From an uncultured cyanobacterium (GTDB lineage Bacteria > Cyanobacteriota > Cyanobacteriia > PCC-6307 > Cyanobiaceae), in NCBI GenBank assembly GCA_963765575.1, contig CAVXWZ010000001.1, forward strand, positions 160,001 through 224,000: DNA of 64,000 nucleotides, written 5' to 3'. The position numbers were made by a program, and so were the translations under genes. Within the stretch, counting starts at the first letter, position 1, and each line of letters starts with the position of its first letter. The notes under the pieces were generated by a model. The model was not told the origin of the DNA. It did not search any database and worked only from the letters and a program-made list of their open reading frames with translations. Positions 2,632 through 30,727 of this stretch are shown here, in pieces.

Positions 2632-4122
2632 TCAGAATTCAAAGGTGGTTTTGATCAGGCCCCCATAGGTGTCGTCGACACCCGTGTTCTGGACATAGAA
2701 GAAAGCAGGGGTCACGCTGATGTTGTCGGTGACCTGCCACTTGTACCAGAGCTCATAGGCGAGGTTTTCGTCACCGTCGCTGCCGTCCACCCAGAGGCTG
2801 GCGCTGCAGTTGACGTTGGCACAGTTGCCGCCGTCACGCTGACCGACGCTGCCCAGGGCCATGCCCAGGGCGTTGCCCTGCATGAACATGTCAGCCCACT
2901 GCAGGCCCACCATCCAGCTCCAGGCCTCGTCATCACCGGAGCGATCGTAATCGGTCCAGCCAAAGCCGGCGCTGATTGAGGGCGCCCAGCCTGCCTCAAT
3001 AGGCGCCCAGTAGCCGCTCACTCCAATGTTCTGGTTGGAAGCATTGGGGAAGAAACTGCTGAGTCCTGGGCGCACTTCGGATTCTCCGAGGTTGTTGAAG
3101 TCGGAGTAGGTGTAGGCGATGGCACCACCCCAGTTCTCACCGGCGTAACCGCCCTGGACGGTGATGGTGTAGTCCTCACCGGCGCCGATGCTGGAGTTCT
3201 GGGAGGCATCCAGATCGGCCACATACAGTGCACTGACGGCCCAGCCTTCGTTCTCCCACCAGATGCCGACGCCAGCTCCCTGAGTCAAATTGTAGGTGGA
3301 CTGGCCACCGGCATAGGTGAAGATGTCCAGGATGGTGTCAGCCGGGTAAGCGCTGGGCCAGATGGCCAGCATGTCGTTCTGCTCGACGTTGGCGCCCACC
3401 GTGGCGGTGAAGTTCTCACCAATGGGGAACTGGTAAAAGAGTTTGCTGAGCTCCACCGAGTTGCCGGTACCTGCTTCGGCCTCCAACACAGTGTTGCCGT
3501 TGCCAAACACCGAATCATCAAAGTTGCCGGCTTCCAACTCGGTATACAGCAGGTCTTTGCCGGTGAAGCTGGTGGCGAGGCCCAGGGCCAGCTTGTAGTT
3601 GACGGTCACATCGCCACCGAAGCCGGTGTTGCCGGCGCCGCCGATGGTCATCACGGCTTCGCCGCTGAGCACGGTGGTGGTGGAAAACTGACTGGCCTCC
3701 AGCTCACCGACCTTGGCCTCGAGGCCGTCGACGCGGCCCTTGAGGATGGCGAGTTCCCTCTCGAACTCGGCCATCAGGCGCTTGAGCTCGTCGGTCACTT
3801 CGGTGACGCGGTCGAGACAGGCGTTCAGGAGGGCGGCGGCCTCGAAACGGGTCATGGCCCGCTGGCCCTTGAAGGTGCCGTCGGGATAGCCGGCGACGCA
3901 GCCGTAACGCTCGATCAGGCCCGTGAGCGCCTGGTAGGCCCAGTCCGTCGGGACGACGTCGGGGAACTGGGAGATGCTGGTGACTTGGTCGCTGCTGGCG
4001 TACTGGTGGATGCCGTCGAGATTCAACTCAGCTGCCTGCAGCGGGGCAGGCGTGACGGCGGGCAGGCCAGCCAGCAGGCCGAGGACTGCTGGCGCCAGCA
4101 GGCGTTGGTGCATGCGTTGCAT
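2632..4122 (-). CDS. Cyanobacterial SLH-domain outer-membrane porin (Som/OprB-like)
   Basis: Signal peptide, SLH DVxPTDWAYQAL..ERYGCVAGYPDG, coiled coil, FSTTT, beta-barrel ending KTTFEF. Confidence 0.95.
   Translation of the reverse strand: MQRMHQRLLAPAVLGLLAGLPAVTPAPLQAAELNLDGIHQYASSDQVTSISQFPDVVPTDWAYQALTGLIERYGCVAGYPDGTFKGQRAMTRFEAAALLNACLDRVTEVTDELKRLMAEFERELAILKGRVDGLEAKVGELEASQFSTTTVLSGEAVMTIGGAGNTGFGGDVTVNYKLALGLATSFTGKDLLYTELEAGNFDDSVFGNGNTVLEAEAGTGNSVELSKLFYQFPIGENFTATVGANVEQNDMLAIWPSAYPADTILDIFTYAGGQSTYNLTQGAGVGIWWENEGWAVSALYVADLDASQNSSIGAGEDYTITVQGGYAGENWGGAIAYTYSDFNNLGESEVRPGLSSFFPNASNQNIGVSGYWAPIEAGWAPSISAGFGWTDYDRSGDDEAWSWMVGLQWADMFMQGNALGMALGSVGQRDGGNCANVNCSASLWVDGSDGDENLAYELWYKWQVTDNISVTPAFFYVQNTGVDDTYGGLIKTTFEF
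3668..4005. repeat. Dispersed direct repeat copy 1 (porin SLH/coiled-coil coding region)
   Basis: Near-identical to 28874-29211; 3710-3919 identical to 28916-29125. Confidence 0.95.
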
Positions 4123-4300: not shown

Positions 4301-4942
4301 TCAGGGCACGAGCATGGTCCAGGCGAAGGCGGCACCGATGCCGATCCAGATGCCCGCCAGCAGGCGCCGGCCGTTGTCCTTCAAGCTGGCAAGAATTGGA
4401 CTGGAGGCGGCGGTAACGAGCAGCAGCAGGGCCCCCTGGCTGATCAGCAGGCCGAGAAAGTAGGTGGCCAGCGGAGTGGGTTCGGCTCCCACAACCGTGC
4501 CGCCGAGCAGGTAGCCATGCAGGGCGATCGCCGGCAGCAGCAGTGCCGCAGGCAGCTTGTTCAGTGCCACCAGGCCGGCGACCACAAGGCTCAGGGAAAC
4601 CAGCGCCTCGGCAAACGGAGTCACCGATGCGGCCAGGGGCACCACCAGGGCGACAGCGCTGCCCAGCAGCCCCGTGGCAAGCAGGGGGAGCACCCAGGCG
4701 AGGGGGCGGCGCAGCCCCACGAAGCCGATGGCGAGCAGGAACAGCAGATGGTCGGGGCCCAGCAGGGGATGGCCGATACCGCTCACGAAGCCCATCCAGG
4801 GGCTCATCGCGGTGCCCTCGGCCATGCCGAAGGGGTGGTGGGCCAGGGCGGCGGCGGGGTGCAGGGCGCTGAGCGTGAGCAGTCCAGCCGCCAGAGCAAG
4901 CGAACCTGCGGCGGGCGCCGCAGGGAAAAGCCGTTGATTCAA
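4301..4942 (-). CDS. hupE: HupE/UreJ family Ni/Co transporter, probably cobalt
   Basis: ALAH-H after signal peptide, SGIGHPLLGPDHLLFLL, ALHGY; cobalamin riboswitch upstream; TTG start. Confidence 0.9.
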   Translation of the reverse strand: MNQRLFPAAPAAGSLALAAGLLTLSALHPAAALAHHPFGMAEGTAMSPWMGFVSGIGHPLLGPDHLLFLLAIGFVGLRRPLAWVLPLLATGLLGSAVALVVPLAASVTPFAEALVSLSLVVAGLVALNKLPAALLLPAIALHGYLLGGTVVGAEPTPLATYFLGLLISQGALLLLVTAASSPILASLKDNGRRLLAGIWIGIGAAFAWTMLVP

Positions 4943-4965
4943 GGGTCGATCCTCGTCGAGTGAAG

Positions 4966-5080
4966 GCGCTGGCGGGCGTTCTGACTTCCCCTCTCGGGGT
5001 TCACAGCTGCGGGACAGCGCCGGACTTGCACCGGACTTTCCCCCTTTCCTTCAGCAGCTGATCACTGCTGAAACCAGGCA
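4966..5080 (-). ncRNA. Cobalamin riboswitch
   Basis: Minus strand GGT..AAAGGGGGAAAGTCCGGTGCAAGTCCGGCGCTGTCCCGCAGCTGT..GGAAGTCAGAACGCCCGCC matches the B12-element core, directly 5' of hupE. Confidence 0.93.
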
Positions 5081-5183
5081 TCGATCAGCTAAGGCCAGGC
5101 AGGCGGAAGGCGGGGCGGCGGCCCCTGGTTCGACACAAGCTGTGATCGGCCCGCTCGGGCCCATGCCCCAGTCCGCTGATGCC

Positions 5184-24014: not shown

Positions 24015-25264
24015 TGCGCACGCTCTCGCCGGTTCAGCAGTACAGCATCATCACGGCCAACAACTGGGCTTTCACCATCACCGATGGAGCCCTGCGGATG
24101 TTGGTGGTGTTCCACTTTCTGCAGCTGGGGTTCACCACACTTGAGGTGGCTTTCCTGTTCATTTTCTATGAGTTTTTCGGGGTTCTCACCAACCTCTACG
24201 GCGGCTGGCTGGGAGCCCGCTTCGGCCTCAAACTCACGCTCTGGATCGGCACGGTGCTGCAGATCGTGGCCCTGTTGCTGCTGGTGCCGGTGGCGGATAC
24301 CTGGCCCAGACTGCTCTCGGTGGTGTGGGTGATGCTGGCCCAGGCCCTCAGCGGCATCGCCAAGGATCTCGAGAAGATGAGCGCCAAGAGCGCCATTCGC
24401 GTGGTGGTTCCTGAAACCCCCGACGATCACAGCCGCGGCGAGGGGCAGTTGTTTCGCTGGGTGGCCATCCTCACCGGCGCCAAGAACGCCCTCAAGGGCC
24501 TGGGCTTTTTTGTGGGCGGTGTTCTGCTCACCACCGTGGGCTTCAATGCGGGCGTGGTGGTGCTGGCTGGCTGGCTGGCGGTGGCCTTTCTGGTCACCCT
24601 GCTGCTGCCACGGGACATCGGCAAGATGAAGAGCAAACCGGCCTTCAGCTCCCTGCTGTCCAAGAGTGAGGGCATCAATGTGCTGTCGCTGGCCCGCTTC
24701 TTCCTGTTTGGAGCCCGCGATGTGTGGTTCGTGGTGGCCCTGCCGGTGTTTCTGCAGGCGAGCCTGGGCTGGGACTTCTGGAAGGTGGGGGGCTTCATGG
24801 GCCTGTGGGTGATCGGCTACGGGATCATCCAGGGTTCCGCCCCCAGCCTGCGCCGGGCCTGGGGCAGCGATCGCCCCCCCGGTCCGCCGGCCGTGCAGTT
24901 CTGGGCGGCCGTGCTCACGGCGATTCCGGCGCTGATCGCCATCACCCTGTGGCGTGAGGTGGGCAACCCCGGCATCGCCGTGGTGGTGGGGCTGATGGTG
25001 TTCGGGGTGGTGTTTGCCATGAATTCCTCGATTCACAGCTACATGATTCTTGCCTACACCGAAGCCGACGATGTGAGCCTGAATGTGGGCTTCTATTACA
25101 TGGCCAATGCCGCCGGCCGTCTCTTGGGCACCCTGCTGTCCGGGGCCCTGTTCCTGGTGGGCGGGCTGCAGGCCTGTCTGTGGGCCTCCTGTCTTCTGGT
25201 GATCCTGGCCTTCCTCGCCGGCAGGCGGCTGCCCACGCCACCGCGGCAGCTGCAGCCTGCTTAG
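24014..25264 (+). CDS. arsJ: Organoarsenical efflux MFS transporter
   Basis: WAFTITDGALRMLV, SGIAKDL.KMSAKS, FGARDVWFVVALP, NVGFYYMANA. Confidence 0.95.
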   Translation: MRTLSPVQQYSIITANNWAFTITDGALRMLVVFHFLQLGFTTLEVAFLFIFYEFFGVLTNLYGGWLGARFGLKLTLWIGTVLQIVALLLLVPVADTWPRLLSVVWVMLAQALSGIAKDLEKMSAKSAIRVVVPETPDDHSRGEGQLFRWVAILTGAKNALKGLGFFVGGVLLTTVGFNAGVVVLAGWLAVAFLVTLLLPRDIGKMKSKPAFSSLLSKSEGINVLSLARFFLFGARDVWFVVALPVFLQASLGWDFWKVGGFMGLWVIGYGIIQGSAPSLRRAWGSDRPPGPPAVQFWAAVLTAIPALIAITLWREVGNPGIAVVVGLMVFGVVFAMNSSIHSYMILAYTEADDVSLNVGFYYMANAAGRLLGTLLSGALFLVGGLQACLWASCLLVILAFLAGRRLPTPPRQLQPA

Positions 25265-26328
25265 CGGTAACCCTCCTTGCGGGTGTCCTCGAAGCTGCGG
25301 CGCAGGGCTTCGCCGATGGTGAGACCCACCGGCAGATCACCACCGAAGGAGGTGCCGAGGATGTGGCGGTAGAGCTTGGTTTCCACCAGCCGGTAGGTGT
25401 CGGCGGGGAGGGGGATGTAGCCGGCTTCCTCCACGAAGCGCAGGCCGTTGCCCACCGTGAAGCCCACGAAGCTGCGGATGGTGTCATCGCTGCGCATCTG
25501 CTGATCGTTCACATAGATGAACAGCGGCCGCGACAGGGGCTTGTAGGTGCCGTCCTGGGCCGTATCCACCGAAGGTGCCACGGGGATGCCATCGGGGCCG
25601 GCGATGGCCAGGGCGTTGAGGCGATCGCGGTTGGCCTGGTAGTAGGCGAAGCCGAAATAGCCCATGGCGTTGGGGTCAGTGGCGACGCAGTCCACGATCA
25701 CCGTGTCGTCCTCGCTGGTCTTGACGTCGCTGCGGGAATTGGCACTGTCGCCGTTGATGGCCTCGTTGAAATAATCGAAGGTACCGGAGTCGGCGCCCGG
25801 GCTGCAGAGCCGCAGGGGGCGGTCCGGCCAGGTGCCGTTGATCTGATTCCAGCTGTTCACCTGGCCTTCGGCCTGCTGCGACCAGGTGCGTGCCAGTGCC
25901 GTGGTGGTGATGGCGGTGGCCCAGTCGTTGCTGCCGTTCACCACCACCGTGAGCGCATCGAAGGCCAGCGGCAGTTCAATGAAGGTGATGCCGCGCTCGG
26001 CGCAGGCCTTGAGTTCGGAGCTGTTGATCGGCCGGGAGGCATTGGCGATGGCGATGCTGCCCTGGCAGAACTCGCGCAGGCCGCCACTGGTGCCGACTTC
26101 AGAGAGTTTGATGGTGATGTCGCGGCCGCGGTTGGTGGTGGCAAAGGCCTCAGCGGCCTTCTCGATCACGGGGAAGACCGTGCTGGAGCCGCTGATGGCG
26201 AGGGTGGAGCCCCCACCAGTGGCATCCCTGTTGTCTGAGACGCGACCACCGCAACTGCTCACCAGGGCCAGGGAGGCCGTGAGCAGGAGGGCGGAAAACG
26301 GGCGGGCCATGGGGGCGAGAACATGCAT
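25261..26328 (-). CDS. PstS-family phosphate-binding lipoprotein (SphX-type)
   Basis: Lipobox VSSC, GSSTVFP, GTSGG..FC, NASRPI, DSGTFDYF, YKPLSRPLFIY. Confidence 0.92.
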   Translation of the reverse strand: MHVLAPMARPFSALLLTASLALVSSCGGRVSDNRDATGGGSTLAISGSSTVFPVIEKAAEAFATTNRGRDITIKLSEVGTSGGLREFCQGSIAIANASRPINSSELKACAERGITFIELPLAFDALTVVVNGSNDWATAITTTALARTWSQQAEGQVNSWNQINGTWPDRPLRLCSPGADSGTFDYFNEAINGDSANSRSDVKTSEDDTVIVDCVATDPNAMGYFGFAYYQANRDRLNALAIAGPDGIPVAPSVDTAQDGTYKPLSRPLFIYVNDQQMRSDDTIRSFVGFTVGNGLRFVEEAGYIPLPADTYRLVETKLYRHILGTSFGGDLPVGLTIGEALRRSFEDTRKEGYR

Positions 26329-26478: not shown

Positions 26479-27534
26479 TCATTCCTTGATCTTGTCGATT
26501 TCTGCGAGAGCACGCTTGAGCACATCACCCTTGAGCGGCACGTAGCCAAGCTCAGCAGCGGTGGCCTGAGGGCCCTCTTGGAGGGACCACTTGAGGAACG
26601 TGCGCACGGCCTCGGCCTTCTCGGGGCCGTAGCCGTTTTCGTAGGCGAGGATCCAGGTGAAGGCCGCGATCGGGAAGCTGTCGGCGCCGGCCGGATTGCA
26701 GTCGGTGCCGCCCAGACGCTCATCGAGCACGATGCCGTTGAGCGCAGCCGCGCCGCTCTCACCGGTGGCGGTGATGAAGTTGCCGTCCTTGTTCTGCACG
26801 GCGGCGCCCTTGATGTCGCCGCGCACGAAGGCCTGGTTGATGTAGCCGATGGAGCCCGGGGTGTTGCCGATCAGGCCGGCAACGCCCTCGTTGCCCTTGC
26901 CACCCACGCCCACCGGCCACTCCACGGCCTTGCCACTGCCCACCGTGTCTTCCCACTCCTTGGAGAAGCAGCTCAGCGAGCTGGTGAACACGGCGGTGGT
27001 GCCGGAGCCGTCGCTGCGGTGGGCCACGGTGATCGGAGCCTCAGGGCAGCCGAGGTCCTTCCAGTCGGTGATCTTGCCCAGGAAGATGTCCGCCAGCTGG
27101 GCCTGGGTGAGCTTCAGGTCAGGGCAGTCGGCGTTGTTGTAGGCCGGCACCACCGTGCCGCCCAGCATTGGGATCTGCAGGGCACCGCGCTCACCGGCGG
27201 TTTCCTTGCTGAATTCTTCCTCGTCCAGCTGTTCGTCGGTGGCGCCGAAGTCAACCGAACCAGCCAGGAACTGGCGCACGCCGGCACCGGAACCAACCGA
27301 CTGGTAGTTGACCTGGTTGCCGGTTTCCGTGGCGTAGTCGCCCGCCCAGCGCTGGTAGGCCGCCGCCGGGAAGGAGGCCCCGGCGCCGTTGATCGTGGGC
27401 AGGGACACGCTGCCGCCGCCCCCACAGCCCGTGGCGAGCATGGAGAGCGACACCAGGCCTCCGGTGATGGCCAGGGAGGAGCGGCGGCCGGGCAGGCGCT
27501 GCTTCGGCTTGGCGGAGGAGCGAATCGGTTGCAT
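26479..27534 (-). CDS. pstS: Phosphate ABC transporter substrate-binding protein
   Basis: Lipobox ATGC, GAGASFP, YQSVGSGAG, RSDGSGTT, GKGNEGV. Confidence 0.96.
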   Translation of the reverse strand: MQPIRSSAKPKQRLPGRRSSLAITGGLVSLSMLATGCGGGGSVSLPTINGAGASFPAAAYQRWAGDYATETGNQVNYQSVGSGAGVRQFLAGSVDFGATDEQLDEEEFSKETAGERGALQIPMLGGTVVPAYNNADCPDLKLTQAQLADIFLGKITDWKDLGCPEAPITVAHRSDGSGTTAVFTSSLSCFSKEWEDTVGSGKAVEWPVGVGGKGNEGVAGLIGNTPGSIGYINQAFVRGDIKGAAVQNKDGNFITATGESGAAALNGIVLDERLGGTDCNPAGADSFPIAAFTWILAYENGYGPEKAEAVRTFLKWSLQEGPQATAAELGYVPLKGDVLKRALAEIDKIKE

Positions 27535-27586
27535 GAACTGGCTGTTGGGACCCAGGACCACATCTAACGGAGCACGGGGGCGATGG

Positions 27587-27615
27587 GCTTAAGGGGTGTT
27601 TATGGCGAGGTTAAA
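27587..27615 (-). promoter_or_regulatory. Triple Pho box upstream of pstS
   Basis: Minus strand TTTAACC-TCGC-CATAAAC-ACCC-CTTAAGC, 11-bp period. Confidence 0.85.
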
Positions 27616-27732
27616 TGCTCATGGATGGAAGCAATCGAGGCCAACGGCAACTCCATCTCACCTGGGTGGCTGCCCTGTGTGTTGACCATGTGCTGACCAT
27701 CTTCACGGATAACCCACGCTGTAGACCCCGCA

Positions 27733-27757
27733 TAAAAAAGCCCCCCGTGAGGGGGGC
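27733..27757 (-). terminator. Intrinsic terminator downstream of porin
   Basis: GCCCCCC-TCAC-GGGGGGC followed by T6. Confidence 0.88.
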
Positions 27758-27838
27758 GGCTGATCCCCGCGGGAATCAGCAGGATGGGTGTGTGAGGACA
27801 GGTCTGAGGGTGAACCGCGGCAGGGCCACGGCCCGCGA
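27733..27838 (-). ncRNA. Candidate Yfr1-like sRNA in porin 3' UTR
   Basis: GUCCUCACAC (Yfr1 motif is ACUCCUCACAC) lies between predicted hairpins and before the terminator. Confidence 0.45.
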
Positions 27839-29310
27839 TCAGAATTTGAACGTGGTCTGGATCACGCCGCCCCAGGCATCGTTGCCGCTGTTGGAGGCCA
27901 CTTGGTCGCCGTAGAACAGCGCCGGGGTGATGCTGATGTTGTCGGTGACCTGGAAGCTGGTACCAGAGCTCATAGAGCATCGAGTCGTTGCGGCTGCCGG
28001 TGAAGGGAGGCTGGCCCAGGGCGAAGCCGGCATCGCTGCCGTTGAGGAACGCGTCATCCCACTGCAGACCCACCATCCAGGACTGGGAATCGCTGATCCC
28101 CTCGTCCTGCCAGTTGTAGCCGTAGCCGGCACTGATCGACGGAATCCAGCCCGCGTCTATCGGCGCCCAGTAGGCCGCGAAGCCAAGGCTGCTGGCGCTG
28201 CCGCCAGCTGGGCACGGTGGAGCTGAAGTTGGGACCCGCAGGCGGCTGTTCTCGGAGCCGTAGCGGTAGGCCACGGCGGCACCCCAGTTGCGACCCTTGA
28301 CGCCCAGCTGGCTGAGCCAGTTGATGCCGCTCTCCTCGGTGAAGGCACCGACGCTGGAGTCGGCGAAGCCATTGTTGGCGACGTAGTTGGTGTCAAAGGT
28401 GATGGCGGGGTTGCCCTTCTCCACCTGCTGCTTCCAGCTGACGCCGACACCGGCGCCGGTGGCTTTGTTGTAGGTGCCGGAGGCACCGGCGAGGCGGAAG
28501 AAGTCGAGGATGCTCGAGTTGTAGGCCTGGGGCGTGAAGCTCAGCATCTCGGTGTTGCGCACCAGGGCGCCCACCGTGAACCGGAAGCTGTCGCCCACCG
28601 GGAAGCGGTAGAAGAGGCGATCCACCTCAACGCTGTTGTCGGTACCTTCGGCCTTGTCCAGCTTGAAGATCTGGGAGCTGCTGCCGAAGGGCAGGGATTC
28701 GAAGTTGCCGGCGCGCAAACGGGTGCGCAGCAGATCCTTGCCGGTGAAGCTGGTGTCGAAGGTCAGCCGCAGGTCGTAGTTGAAGGTGGTTTCGTTCGGA
28801 TCGCCTGTCAGATCCACCGATGGGGCTCTCGAAGTCGGGGGAGCCACCCAGGATGAAGCTGGCCTCACCCTTCAGCACGGTGGTGGTGGAAAACTGGCTG
28901 GCCTCCAGCTCACCCACCTTGGCCTCGAGGCCGTCGACGCGGCCCTTGAGGATGGCGAGTTCCCTCTCGAACTCGGCCATCAGGCGCTTGAGCTCGTCGG
29001 TCACTTCGGTGACGCGGTCGAGACAGGCGTTCAGGAGGGCGGCGGCCTCGAAACGGGTCATGGCCCGCTGGCCCTTGAAGGTGCCGTCGGGATAGCCGGC
29101 GACGCAGCCGTAACGCTCGATCAGGTTGGAGAGCGCCTGGTAGGCCCAGTCCGTGGGGAAGACGTCGGGGAACTGGGAGATGCTGGTGACTTGGTCGCTG
29201 CTGGCGTACTGATTGACGCCATCCAGGTTGACCTCAGCGGCGGTGGCGGCCACGGGGGCCAGCAGTCCGAGTGCCGCAGGGGCAACCAGCAGTTGCTGGA
29301 AGAGTTTCAT
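27839..29310 (-). pseudogene. SLH-domain Som-type porin with several frameshifts (pseudogene or assembly error)
   Basis: MKLFQQLL start, SLH domain, barrel and terminal IQTTFKF lie in three frames; shifts near 28815 and 27960. Confidence 0.85.
28874..29211. repeat. Dispersed direct repeat copy 2 (porin SLH/coiled-coil coding region)
   Basis: Near-identical to 3668-4005. Confidence 0.95.
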
Positions 29311-29313
29311 CGG

Positions 29314-29323
29314 GTCCTCACAC
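29314..29323 (-). promoter_or_regulatory. Yfr1-type sRNA target site overlapping the porin RBS
   Basis: mRNA GUGUGAGGAC ends 3 nt before AUG; complementary to the Yfr1 seed UCCUCACAC. Confidence 0.7.
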
Positions 29324-29626
29324 CGATAGGTCAAAATGCCCAACGGGCACGGCGCGCAACGTAACCGCTGCACCTTGAAAAAGGGAGTGGGCAGGCCACG
29401 GCGCGCTGTAGCGCAGAACACATCCCCTTCGATCCTCAGGCCAGTCGGCCGCCAGGGTGGTCAATCCAGCCCGGATTCGGCCCGGCCCGGATTCGCCCAG
29501 CCTGGATCGGCCTTGCCCCGCGGCCAGCATCGCCAGTTCCCGCCACTGCCGTCAGCACTGCAGGCGCTGCTGTTCCAGCAACCAGTCGAGCTGGGGCACG
29601 GTGCGCTCGATGCCATCGCTGCACTC

Positions 29627-30727
29627 TCAGCGCCGGGCCGTCCAGTCCTGGAACCAGCCGCGCCGTTGCAGCAGCCACACCTGCAGGGCCGCCACCAGCG
29701 CCATCAGCAGCAGGGCATAGGCATAGCCATAGCGCCAGTGCAGCTCCGGCATGTGCTCGAAATTCATGCCGTAGATGCCACCGATCACGGTGAGCGGGGC
29801 GAAGATGCTCGTGAGGATGGTGAGGATTTTCATCACCTGGTTCATGCGGTTGCTCACGCTCACGGCATAGGCCTGGGAGATCCCGTCGCACTGGTGACGC
29901 AGCAGCTCGCAGCTCTCGAACAGCAGCTCCACCTGCTCGGCCATGTCGTTGAAGCCGGCGAGGGCCTCCGGGCCCAGCAACTGCTGAAACTGGCGCAGCA
30001 GTTTGCGGATCTGATGGCGCAGGGGCCAGATCTGATGACGGATCCGGCGCACGTTGCTGCGGTGCTGGAAGGCCAGGTTGAGCAGCCTGGGTTTGGGGTT
30101 CCTCAGGGCCGCCTCCTCGAGATCTTCGAGGGCGTTGGCGACCTGCTCAACGATGGGGAAGAGGCCATCGAGCACGTCGTCGATCAGGTAGTGCAGGATG
30201 TCGTCGAGATCCCGCTGGTCCACCGCGCCGGCATTGGAGCGCAGCCAGCCGGTGACCTCGGCAAAGGAGTTGCCCTGGCTGGATTCCTCGCAGCTCACCA
30301 GCAAATTGGGGAGCAGCAGCAGACCCACCTGGGAGCTGATCAGGTGGGCCGGGTTGCGCGCGCTGCTCAGCCGATGCAGCACCACCAGCAGGGCGCCGTC
30401 GAGGCTGTCCACCCGCGGCCGCTGGGGCACCTCCAGCAGGGGCGGCAGCAGCAGGGGCGGAACCCCCAGCTCCTCAAGCGTCGCGGCGATCTGGTCGGGC
30501 TGGGAGAGGCCCACCACCCGCAGCCAGATCGGCAGGCCGAGGCCCTTCAGCCGTTGCACGTCCCGGGCGCTGTCCACTGTGCGCAGCTCCGCCCCCTCGG
30601 GGCCGAACACCAGGGCGCTGAGGTGGCTGGGCAGCCGGCCGCCGTGCACATAGAGCTCGCTGGGCAGGTTGGCCGGCCGCTCCTCCAGGCGACGGGAGGT
30701 CAGGGCACCAGGGGTTGGACGCAGCAC
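29627..30727 (-). CDS. corA: CorA family Mg2+/Co2+ transporter
   Basis: MNQVMKILT, GIYGMNF..MPEL..YGY signature. Confidence 0.93.
   Translation of the reverse strand: MLRPTPGALTSRRLEERPANLPSELYVHGGRLPSHLSALVFGPEGAELRTVDSARDVQRLKGLGLPIWLRVVGLSQPDQIAATLEELGVPPLLLPPLLEVPQRPRVDSLDGALLVVLHRLSSARNPAHLISSQVGLLLLPNLLVSCEESSQGNSFAEVTGWLRSNAGAVDQRDLDDILHYLIDDVLDGLFPIVEQVANALEDLEEAALRNPKPRLLNLAFQHRSNVRRIRHQIWPLRHQIRKLLRQFQQLLGPEALAGFNDMAEQVELLFESCELLRHQCDGISQAYAVSVSNRMNQVMKILTILTSIFAPLTVIGGIYGMNFEHMPELHWRYGYAYALLLMALVAALQVWLLQRRGWFQDWTARR

What the first reader, a model, noticed from the sequence alone, without database searches (positions are those of the whole stretch)
27733..29323. Porin gene whose 3' UTR carries a Yfr1-like seed exactly complementary to its own RBS region
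Seen: the porin leader reads GUGUGAGGAC-CCG-AUG (29314-29323). About 40 nt after the stop, the same strand reads GUCCUCACAC (27790-27799), a perfect 10-nt complement. That motif lies between a GC hairpin (~27816-27837) and a second hairpin (27759-27780), followed by a terminator. Established: the cyanobacterial sRNA Yfr1 has an unpaired ACUCCUCACAC between stem-loops and targets the RBS of Som porin mRNAs. Inference: the transcript may release a 3'-UTR-derived sRNA, or fold 3' end onto 5' end, to repress itself and paralogous porins. Such an RNA could stay functional even if the coding region is a pseudogene. The other porin (2632-4122) has neither motif.
Basis: partly seen in the sequence, partly recalled or inferred. 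Interest (0 to 1): 0.78.

Follow-up and report, generated by a model that had tools for sequence, protein, structure and literature searches.

The report
Yfr1-type seed in porin mRNA tail
The untranslated tail of a cyanobacterial outer-membrane porin message carries an exposed copy of the short sequence that the small RNA Yfr1 uses to block porin translation, and this recurs in many related genomes, so porin messages probably help to limit porin synthesis, though no RNA evidence exists yet.

Summary
GUCCUCACAC (27799-27790) lies 39 nt after the stop of a Som-type porin gene, unpaired between two hairpins ahead of a terminator, and complements the leader (29323-29314). It is not chance. The core CCUCACAC follows 47 of 93 picocyanobacterial porins whose leader has GUGUGAGG (shuffles about 1) and 1 of 23 without; it follows a porin-type stop in 99 of 401 family genomes (control 0). 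A second porin of this genome carries it in a hairpin loop, the commonest form, with variable, covarying stems. It is additional to canonical Yfr1 and Yfr2, present in 21 of 21 genus genomes, and matches neither Rfam model. Best reading (about 50%): the mRNA tail, cut out or intact, is an extra Yfr1-type seed acting in trans on porin leaders, giving feedback. Rivals: Yfr2 docking site, 5'-3' folding, protein site. No RNA data were available. The frameshifts are probably assembly errors. Not found in the literature searched; earlier notes of this scan report the same idea elsewhere.

The parts
29314..29323 (-). Leader box GUGUGAGGAC over the ribosome-binding region, 3 nt before the ATG; Yfr1-type target site
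   Evidence: GUGUGAGG in 93 of 116 picocyanobacterial porin leaders examined; the validated MED4 target PMM1121 has GTGTGAGG in its cloned 5' UTR
27839..29310 (-). Som-type outer-membrane porin gene (signal peptide, SLH domain, OprB-type barrel, C-terminal Phe); frame breaks near 28810 and 27958 and a compensating pair near 28234-28205 in this assembly
   Evidence: 83.5% nucleotide identity to the intact 495-aa gene in L002
27812..27834 (-). Hairpin 1 of the 3' UTR (10-bp inner stem; an outer helix from 27842 to 27804 is also predicted)
   Evidence: predicted
27790..27799 (-). Yfr1-type seed GUCCUCACAC (conserved core CCUCACAC, 27797-27790) in an unpaired linker 27803-27781
   Evidence: conservation
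27759..27780 (-). Hairpin 2 of the 3' UTR (9 bp)
   Evidence: predicted
27733..27757 (-). Intrinsic terminator (7-bp GC stem, U-tract)

Best explanation
The 3' end of the porin mRNA is an additional source of the Yfr1 seed. Step 1 (shown in other strains): Yfr1 represses som porin translation by pairing CCUCACAC with the GUGUGAGG leader box. Step 2 (shown here by sequence comparison): porin tails keep the same 8-9 nt exposed, in a linker (this gene) or a 12-16 nt hairpin loop (most relatives), just upstream of a strong terminator. Step 3 (inferred): the tail, either as a stable fragment of about 70-110 nt left by endonuclease processing or as the ribosome-free end of the intact mRNA, pairs in trans with the leader box of any porin mRNA of the cell, its own gene's and paralogues', and blocks initiation. 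Step 4 (inferred): because seed supply rises with porin transcription, this gives negative feedback and cross-limitation among porins on top of the nearly constitutive Yfr1, and Yfr2 can titrate it.
For: CCUCACAC is the commonest 8-mer in the 150 nt after the stop of 93 leader-positive porins (47 of 93; dinucleotide shuffles mean 1.1, max 4 of 200; 0 copies in 148.7 kb of the same coding strands; 0 of 93 in reverse orientation), against 1 of 23 leader-negative porins and 5 of 2161 crudely called G000 genes, one of them Yfr1 itself. Family-wide: 99 of 401 genomes, 18 of 42 genera, reversed control 0. Unpaired probability 0.90 against 0.40 for the rest of the tail in 47 cases; in a loop closed by at least 5 bp in 40 of 67 against 6.1 expected, with 23 different stems; stem covariation 61 double changes against 21.6, 0 of 500 shuffles. 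The conserved footprint (U)CCUCACAC equals the conserved leader box, not the longer Yfr2 complement: ACUCCUCACAC in only 2 of 67. Predicted net binding of this tail to its own leader -10.3, to the C2 paralogue -9.3, to a third porin -7.5 kcal/mol; Yfr1 to the same leaders -9.2, -8.3, -6.7. One-mismatch variants that keep pairing by G-U are 4-fold over shuffles (15 against 3.75), others 1.5-fold (22 against 14.6). Precedent: Yfr1 represses two som leaders 3.0- and 2.7-fold (PMC2796815); Yfr10 carries the motif in a hairpin loop and pulls down the same porin mRNAs (PMC6778093); OppZ and CarZ (PMC7398697) and ApcZ (PMC8136909).
Against: No expression, processing or binding data. The tail binds Yfr2 as well as it binds a leader (-10.4; the C2 paralogue's tail -17.7 kcal/mol), so energies do not pick the partner. 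The leader-tail association is not significant once kinship is allowed for (7 independent pairs: 2 same way, 0 opposite, 5 no difference; p 0.5). Half of the leader-positive porins (46 of 93) lack the exact core; among the 18 genes with this gene's leader type only 6 have it exactly and 13 within one mismatch. Yfr1 is already abundant, so the gain from an extra seed is unclear. The covariation count comes from an alignment fitted to the structure, a slide of +1 scores nearly as well (0.387 against 0.436), and the unfitted alignment gave no consensus fold. No sigma-70-type promoter was found in 27500-29700.
Confidence: 0.5

Rival explanations
1. The motif is a docking site for Yfr2 (5' end GUGUGAGGAG). 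The abundant porin tail sponges Yfr2, which frees Yfr1, or Yfr2 binding changes the stability of the porin mRNA. Sponging would also give negative feedback, but indirectly.
For: One Yfr2 in 21 of 21 genus genomes, with GTGTGAGGAGTG in all 19 that the script printed. The base two before the core is C or U in 59 of 67 tails, which pairs with the G of Yfr2 but mostly not with porin leaders. The seed stays unchanged in 4 of 4 genes whose leader box has mutated, as expected for an invariant outside partner. Yfr2 traps Yfr1 and Yfr10 (PMC6778093; PMC6974561). Tail-Yfr2 energies -10.4 and -17.7 kcal/mol.
Against: Unpaired tail positions are 76% pyrimidine anyway, so 88% at that column is a slight excess; the next column shows no preference for A/G (34 of 67). 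Yfr1-Yfr2 pairing is far stronger (-22.5), so this tail would compete poorly. It does not explain why the site is concentrated behind genes that are themselves Yfr1 targets.
Confidence: 0.22
2. Cis closed loop: the tail folds back on the leader of the same molecule, shutting off or marking untranslated full-length porin mRNA.
For: In the minimum-energy fold of the whole 1639-nt naked mRNA all 10 pairs form; the core pairs in 12 of 20 mRNAs tested, with a gain of 0.2-6.0 kcal/mol. The motif is enriched on genes that carry the leader box.
Against: No covariation with the own leader and uncompensated leader variants. Not formed in 8 of 20 folds, all of the hairpin-loop type, where it would need a pseudoknot that the program does not model. 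Folds of 1.6-kb naked RNA ignore ribosomes and are unreliable (general knowledge).
Confidence: 0.13
3. The motif is a binding site for an RNA-binding protein that also binds Yfr1, and controls porin mRNA stability or localisation; its complementarity to the leader follows from sharing the Yfr1 motif.
For: An invariant sequence shown in a loop on freely varying stems is typical of protein sites (general knowledge). Nostoc PatR binds Yfr1 most strongly and prefers 3' UTRs (PMC11797042, passages).
Against: G-U-compatible variants are enriched more than others (small counts). No protein specific for CCUCACAC was found in the papers seen. PatR homologues were not searched for here.
Confidence: 0.1
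4. No RNA function: chance, C/A-rich composition, or a DNA-level inverted repeat flanking the gene.
For: Tails are pyrimidine-rich; the presence of the motif changes state at least 24 times on a tree of 116 labelled porins.
Against: 47 of 93 against about 1 after shuffling; permutations of the same letters reach at most 15, and the top ones overlap the motif; strand-specific; placed in RNA hairpin loops with covarying stems.
Confidence: 0.05

Closest known systems
Yfr1 (Rfam RF01116; PMC2190773, PMC2796815)
   Same: Same core CCUCACAC, unpaired between stem-loops in this gene's tail; same predicted target box on som porin leaders and similar binding energy.
   Different: Lacks the full ACUCCUCACAC; no Rfam match; sits in a porin 3' UTR rather than as a stand-alone gene; the genome has its own Yfr1 at G000:C11:602300-602358.
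Yfr10 / Yfr12 / Yfr18 and 'Yfr10-like' sRNAs (RF02362; PMC2518516, PMC6778093)
   Same: Extra carriers of the Yfr1 motif with poorly conserved sequence and position; motif in a loop on top of a stem, as in most porin tails and in the C2 paralogue.
   Different: No RF02362 match in G000. The two published Northern probes for Yfr10-like RNAs match stand-alone loci with no porin gene within 1.5 kb. Those are expressed sRNAs; expression of a porin-tail RNA is not shown.
Autoregulatory 3' UTR sRNAs OppZ and CarZ of Vibrio cholerae (PMC7398697, abstract)
   Same: A 3' UTR that can pair with the translation start region of its own transcript: negative feedback.
   Different: Those are shown to be cut out by RNase E and have their own seeds; here processing is unshown and the seed is shared with a separate conserved sRNA and its antagonist.
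ApcZ of Synechocystis (PMC8136909, passages) and OueS of V. cholerae ompU (PMC13376802, abstract)
   Same: ApcZ: a 3'-end-derived sRNA in cyanobacteria, proposed to act both free and as part of the mRNA. OueS: an sRNA from the 3' part of a porin gene.
   Different: Both regulate other genes, not their own leader; ApcZ has an internal promoter; neither is described as using the Yfr1 motif in the text seen.

Membership tests
Yfr1 (RF01116) | Undecanucleotide ACUCCUCACAC | tested here: not met
   Window has CUGUCCUCACAC; the full 11-mer is in 2 of 67 motif-bearing tails
Yfr1 (RF01116) | Motif unpaired between two stem-loops | tested here: met
   Predicted fold, (23-nt linker; Yfr1 has 16-20 nt per PMC2190773)
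Yfr1 (RF01116) | Score above the Rfam gathering threshold | tested here: not met
   No hit in the window or at E up to 10 at this place; the true Yfr1 scores 61.1 bits elsewhere
Yfr1 (RF01116) | Stand-alone gene, usually between guaB and trxA | tested here: not met
   The element lies 39 nt after a porin stop, upstream of a phosphate-binding-protein gene
Yfr10-like sRNAs (RF02362) | Yfr1 motif outside the Yfr1 locus, structure and synteny not conserved | tested here: met
   Core motif present in addition to Yfr1
Yfr10-like sRNAs (RF02362) | Motif in a loop on top of a stem | tested here: not met
   Linker in this gene; met in the C2 paralogue and in 34 of 47 relatives
Yfr10-like sRNAs (RF02362) | Match to the Rfam model | tested here: not met
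   0 matches in G000 at E up to 1; the model is narrow: a locus matching a published Yfr10-like probe also stays under the cut-off
Yfr10-like sRNAs (RF02362) | Accumulates as a discrete small RNA | not testable with these tools
   No RNA run listed for this stretch
Autoregulatory 3' UTR-derived sRNAs (OppZ/CarZ type) | Conserved accessible seed in the 3' UTR complementary to the own transcript's initiation region, ending in an intrinsic terminator | tested here: met
Autoregulatory 3' UTR-derived sRNAs (OppZ/CarZ type) | Release by RNase E processing or from an internal promoter | tested here: inconclusive
   No sigma-70-like promoter by consensus scan; processing not testable
Autoregulatory 3' UTR-derived sRNAs (OppZ/CarZ type) | Seed-dependent repression of the own mRNA | not testable with these tools
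   Needs reporter or mutant experiments
Yfr2 / Cyano-1 (RF01701) on the opposite strand | 5' GUGUGAGGAG plus the GGAAAC-type stem-loop; Rfam match | tested here: not met
   No hit here; the genome's Yfr2 is at G000:C11:90259-90329

The most novel reading that the evidence does not exclude
Picocyanobacterial porin mRNAs are themselves members of the Yfr1/Yfr2 titration network: intact porin messages present a Yfr1-mimic loop at their 3' end that pairs directly with the leaders of other porin messages (mRNA-mRNA regulation with no small RNA released), so the total porin transcript pool sets its own translation rate and Yfr2 can switch this off.
Probability: 0.25. Interest if true: 0.8.

Novelty: new variant of a known kind. 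Interest (0 to 1): 0.6.

Why it matters
Yfr1 is nearly universal in cyanobacteria and barely changes in level, so how its output is tuned is an open question; Yfr2 trapping is the one known answer (PMC6778093, PMC6974561). A seed pool carried by the target mRNAs themselves would add a load-dependent feedback on the major outer-membrane porins, which govern nutrient uptake and envelope integrity. It would extend 3' UTR autoregulation, shown in Vibrio, to cyanobacteria, with the twist that the seed is borrowed from an existing sRNA. It is cheap to test with the existing E. coli GFP assay, and it warns that Yfr1 knock-outs in Cyanobium-like strains may be buffered.

Tried and rejected
Rfam scans: no family at this place. 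Antisense Yfr2: rejected (see membership). Own-leader covariation: not found. Identity with published Yfr10-like RNAs: the two Northern probes match non-porin loci; Figure S7 of PMC6778093 is a picture and could not be read, so the positions of Syr5, Yfr104 and two Nostoc RNAs were not checked. Expression: no RNA holder listed for the stretch; this is no evidence either way. Internal promoter: none by consensus scan, which covers only sigma-70-type sites. The gap-free alignment of 28 hairpin-type tails gave no consensus structure because loop sizes differ. The hairpin-type covariance model does not match the window's linker-type tail. The phylogenetic test of leader-tail association lacked power; G000's two frameshifted proteins are misplaced in that tree. 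A partition-function fold of whole mRNAs timed out and was replaced by minimum-energy folds. The -11.6 kcal/mol value for the C2 tail on the iron-type porin leader involves sequence outside the seed and was ignored. An A/U-rich patch at the end of the coding sequence could be an RNase E site but is dictated by the conserved C-terminal codons, so it was not counted.

Full report
1. Observation. The window is G000:C1:160001-224000, in a 2.7-Mb, about 69% GC picocyanobacterial genome. On the minus strand the leader reads GUGUGAGGAC-CCG-AUG (29323-29308), the gene ends with ...TTFKF-stop at 27841-27839, and GUCCUCACAC lies at 27799-27790. The tail folds into hairpin, unpaired linker with the motif, hairpin, terminator (z = -4.37; terminator). 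The protein has an SLH domain and an OprB-type region, so it is a Som-type porin. Contigs from three metagenome runs of two studies carry the tail with one difference each.

2. The genome. G000 has four such porins. Two have the GUGUGAGGA leader and both have UCCUCACAC in the tail: this one, and G000:C2:421362, where it lies in a hairpin loop. A third has UUGUGAGGA and no tail motif; the fourth (window 2632-4122) has neither. UCCUCACAC occurs 12 times in the genome on both strands; four of these are the two leaders and two tails. Canonical Yfr1 (RF01116, 61.1 bits) and Yfr2 (RF01701) lie elsewhere and each is present in 21 of 21 genus genomes searched. So the tail motif is an addition, not a replacement. 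As background, 5 of 2161 crudely called genes have CCUCACAC within 150 nt after the stop, one being Yfr1 (that caller missed the frameshifted porins).

3. Conservation. A script found 151 distinct porin 3' ends; 12 from other families were set aside, 3 had under 120 nt downstream and 20 lacked a usable leader or length, leaving 116; loci whose C-terminus the script did not recognise (such as L045) dropped out. Of 93 with GUGUGAGG in the leader, 47 have CCUCACAC within 150 nt after the stop; it is the commonest 8-mer there, ahead of terminator words; shuffles give 1.1 on average, at most 4; it never occurs in the 148.7 kb of coding strand or in reverse orientation. Of 23 without the leader box 1 has it; of 12 from other families 1. 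Start codons were assigned automatically, so a few leader-negative calls may be wrong. A motif-anchored pattern (porin-type stop, 10-40 nt, CCTCACAC) matches 99 of 401 family genomes in 18 of 42 genera, reversed control 0; it is frequent in g1 (16 of 27), g21 (15 of 33), g24 (12 of 26), g45 (16 of 21) and rare in g29 (1 of 68) and g41 (1 of 36) (the 40-nt limit misses the window's own copy). Against: relatives are not independent; the trait changes at least 24 times on the tree of 116 labelled proteins and the leader-tail link is not significant in 7 independent pairs. Among 18 genes with this gene's leader type, 6 have the exact core and 13 a version within one mismatch, so the immediate group is looser than the hairpin group.

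4. Structure. In 47 cases the motif is in a hairpin loop 34 times, in a linker 7 times, partly paired 6 times; mean unpaired probability 0.90 against 0.40. With 20 more tails picked by the motif, 40 of 67 have it in a loop closed by at least 5 bp, against 6.1 with shuffled flanks, on 23 different stems, loops mostly 12-16 nt. A model-fitted alignment of 47 matches shows 61 double changes against 21.6, with the caveats that it is fitted, that a +1 slide scores nearly as well, and that the unfitted alignment gave no consensus. An invariant loop on a variable stem points to an RNA-level function. The two layouts mirror the published ones: Yfr1 has the motif between stems, Yfr10 in a loop (PMC6778093).

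5. Which partner? The seed is therefore held by a shared partner: the leader box common to porins and other Yfr1 targets, or the 5' end of Yfr2. Energies with accessibility: this tail to own leader -10.3, to the C2 leader -9.3, to the third porin -7.5, to Yfr2 -10.4; Yfr1 to the leaders -9.2, -8.3, -6.7 and to Yfr2 -22.5 kcal/mol (my own ungapped-duplex estimate). The tails lack the longer Yfr2 complement that Yfr1 keeps (ACUCCUCACAC in 2 of 67), which favours leaders modestly; a pyrimidine at the position facing the Yfr2 G (59 of 67, background 76%) favours Yfr2 slightly. Cis pairing forms in 12 of 20 whole-mRNA folds with small gains. I put about 50% on a trans-acting seed against porin leaders (released fragment or intact tail), 22% on a Yfr2 site, 13% on cis folding, 10% on a protein site, 5% on no function. 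The first two give the same sign: more porin mRNA, less porin translation.

6. Pseudogene? Against the intact L002 gene the window copy has frame breaks near 28810 and 27958 and a compensating pair near 28234; the C2 paralogue has several more, while 9 flanking regions tested read intact. Contigs of relatives differ at just these places: a base left out at 27958, one put in at 28234, four left out at 28801-28813 in a piece with only 5 other differences. Consensus errors in hypervariable, partly duplicated porin genes are the likelier cause (my estimate about 65%); a strain-specific loss is not excluded. The regulatory reading does not depend on this.

7. Literature. Seen: PMC6778093 (parts 1-4 of 7 and two supplement searches), PMC2796815 (part 2 of 3), PMC2190773 (part 1 of 4), passages of PMC2518516, PMC4734099, PMC6974561, PMC11797042, PMC5069720, PMC8136909, abstracts and outlines of PMC7398697 and PMC13376802. 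Seven searches brought up no paper that describes the Yfr1 motif in porin 3' UTRs; the library lacks most subscription papers, and Figure S7 of PMC6778093 (synteny of Yfr10-like RNAs) is an unread picture that could bear on novelty. The published probes for two Yfr10-like RNAs match stand-alone loci without porins. Five earlier AI notes of this scan describe the same arrangement in other genomes; I reached it before seeing them, and they are not independent support.

8. Verdict. A real, conserved RNA element; works like Yfr1/Yfr10 and like OppZ/CarZ-type feedback, but is not a member of the Yfr1 or Yfr10 Rfam families by the tests above. New variant of a known kind. The function is inferred throughout and directly testable. 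Interest 0.6.

Noticed in passing
G000:C2:419859-421371 (locus L031): Second porin with the same leader box and tail seed, here in a hairpin loop; also frameshifted in the assembly.
   Followed up: yes
window 27585-27620, minus strand: Three TTAA/ATAA-type repeats at 11-nt spacing between the porin terminator and a phosphate-binding-protein gene (26479-27561); resembles a cyanobacterial Pho box (consensus recalled, not tested). A second binding-protein gene follows at 25261-26328.
   Followed up: no
G000:C2:101944, C2:386867, C11:350321: All three rRNA operons carry GTGTGAGG about 580 nt upstream of the 16S 5' end, in the rRNA direction; could be a further Yfr1-type site or chance.
   Followed up: partly
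porin leaders, e.g. L007, L013, L031, L036: A conserved short palindrome GCGCATTGCGCC lies just upstream of the GUGUGAGG box in one large porin group (57 of 136 rows).
   Followed up: no
porin tails, e.g. L008, L014, L093, L134, L157: A second, degenerate seed (CACUUCUCACA) often follows the hairpin; its C-to-U change keeps pairing with the leader box by G-U.
   Followed up: partly
L123, L248, L250, L251: Marine porin leaders with GUGUGAGA instead of GUGUGAGG, tails unchanged: a natural test set for partner specificity.
   Followed up: yes
window 2632-4122 and 4954-5092: The motif-free porin has an upstream AT-rich box resembling a Fur site (recalled, not tested); a cobalamin riboswitch (RF00174) precedes the neighbouring gene at 4301-4942.
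   Followed up: no
G000:C4:91605 and C11:719172: Two further intergenic CUCCUCACAC copies with no Rfam match; candidates for Yfr10-like RNAs or Yfr1 target leaders.
   Followed up: partly
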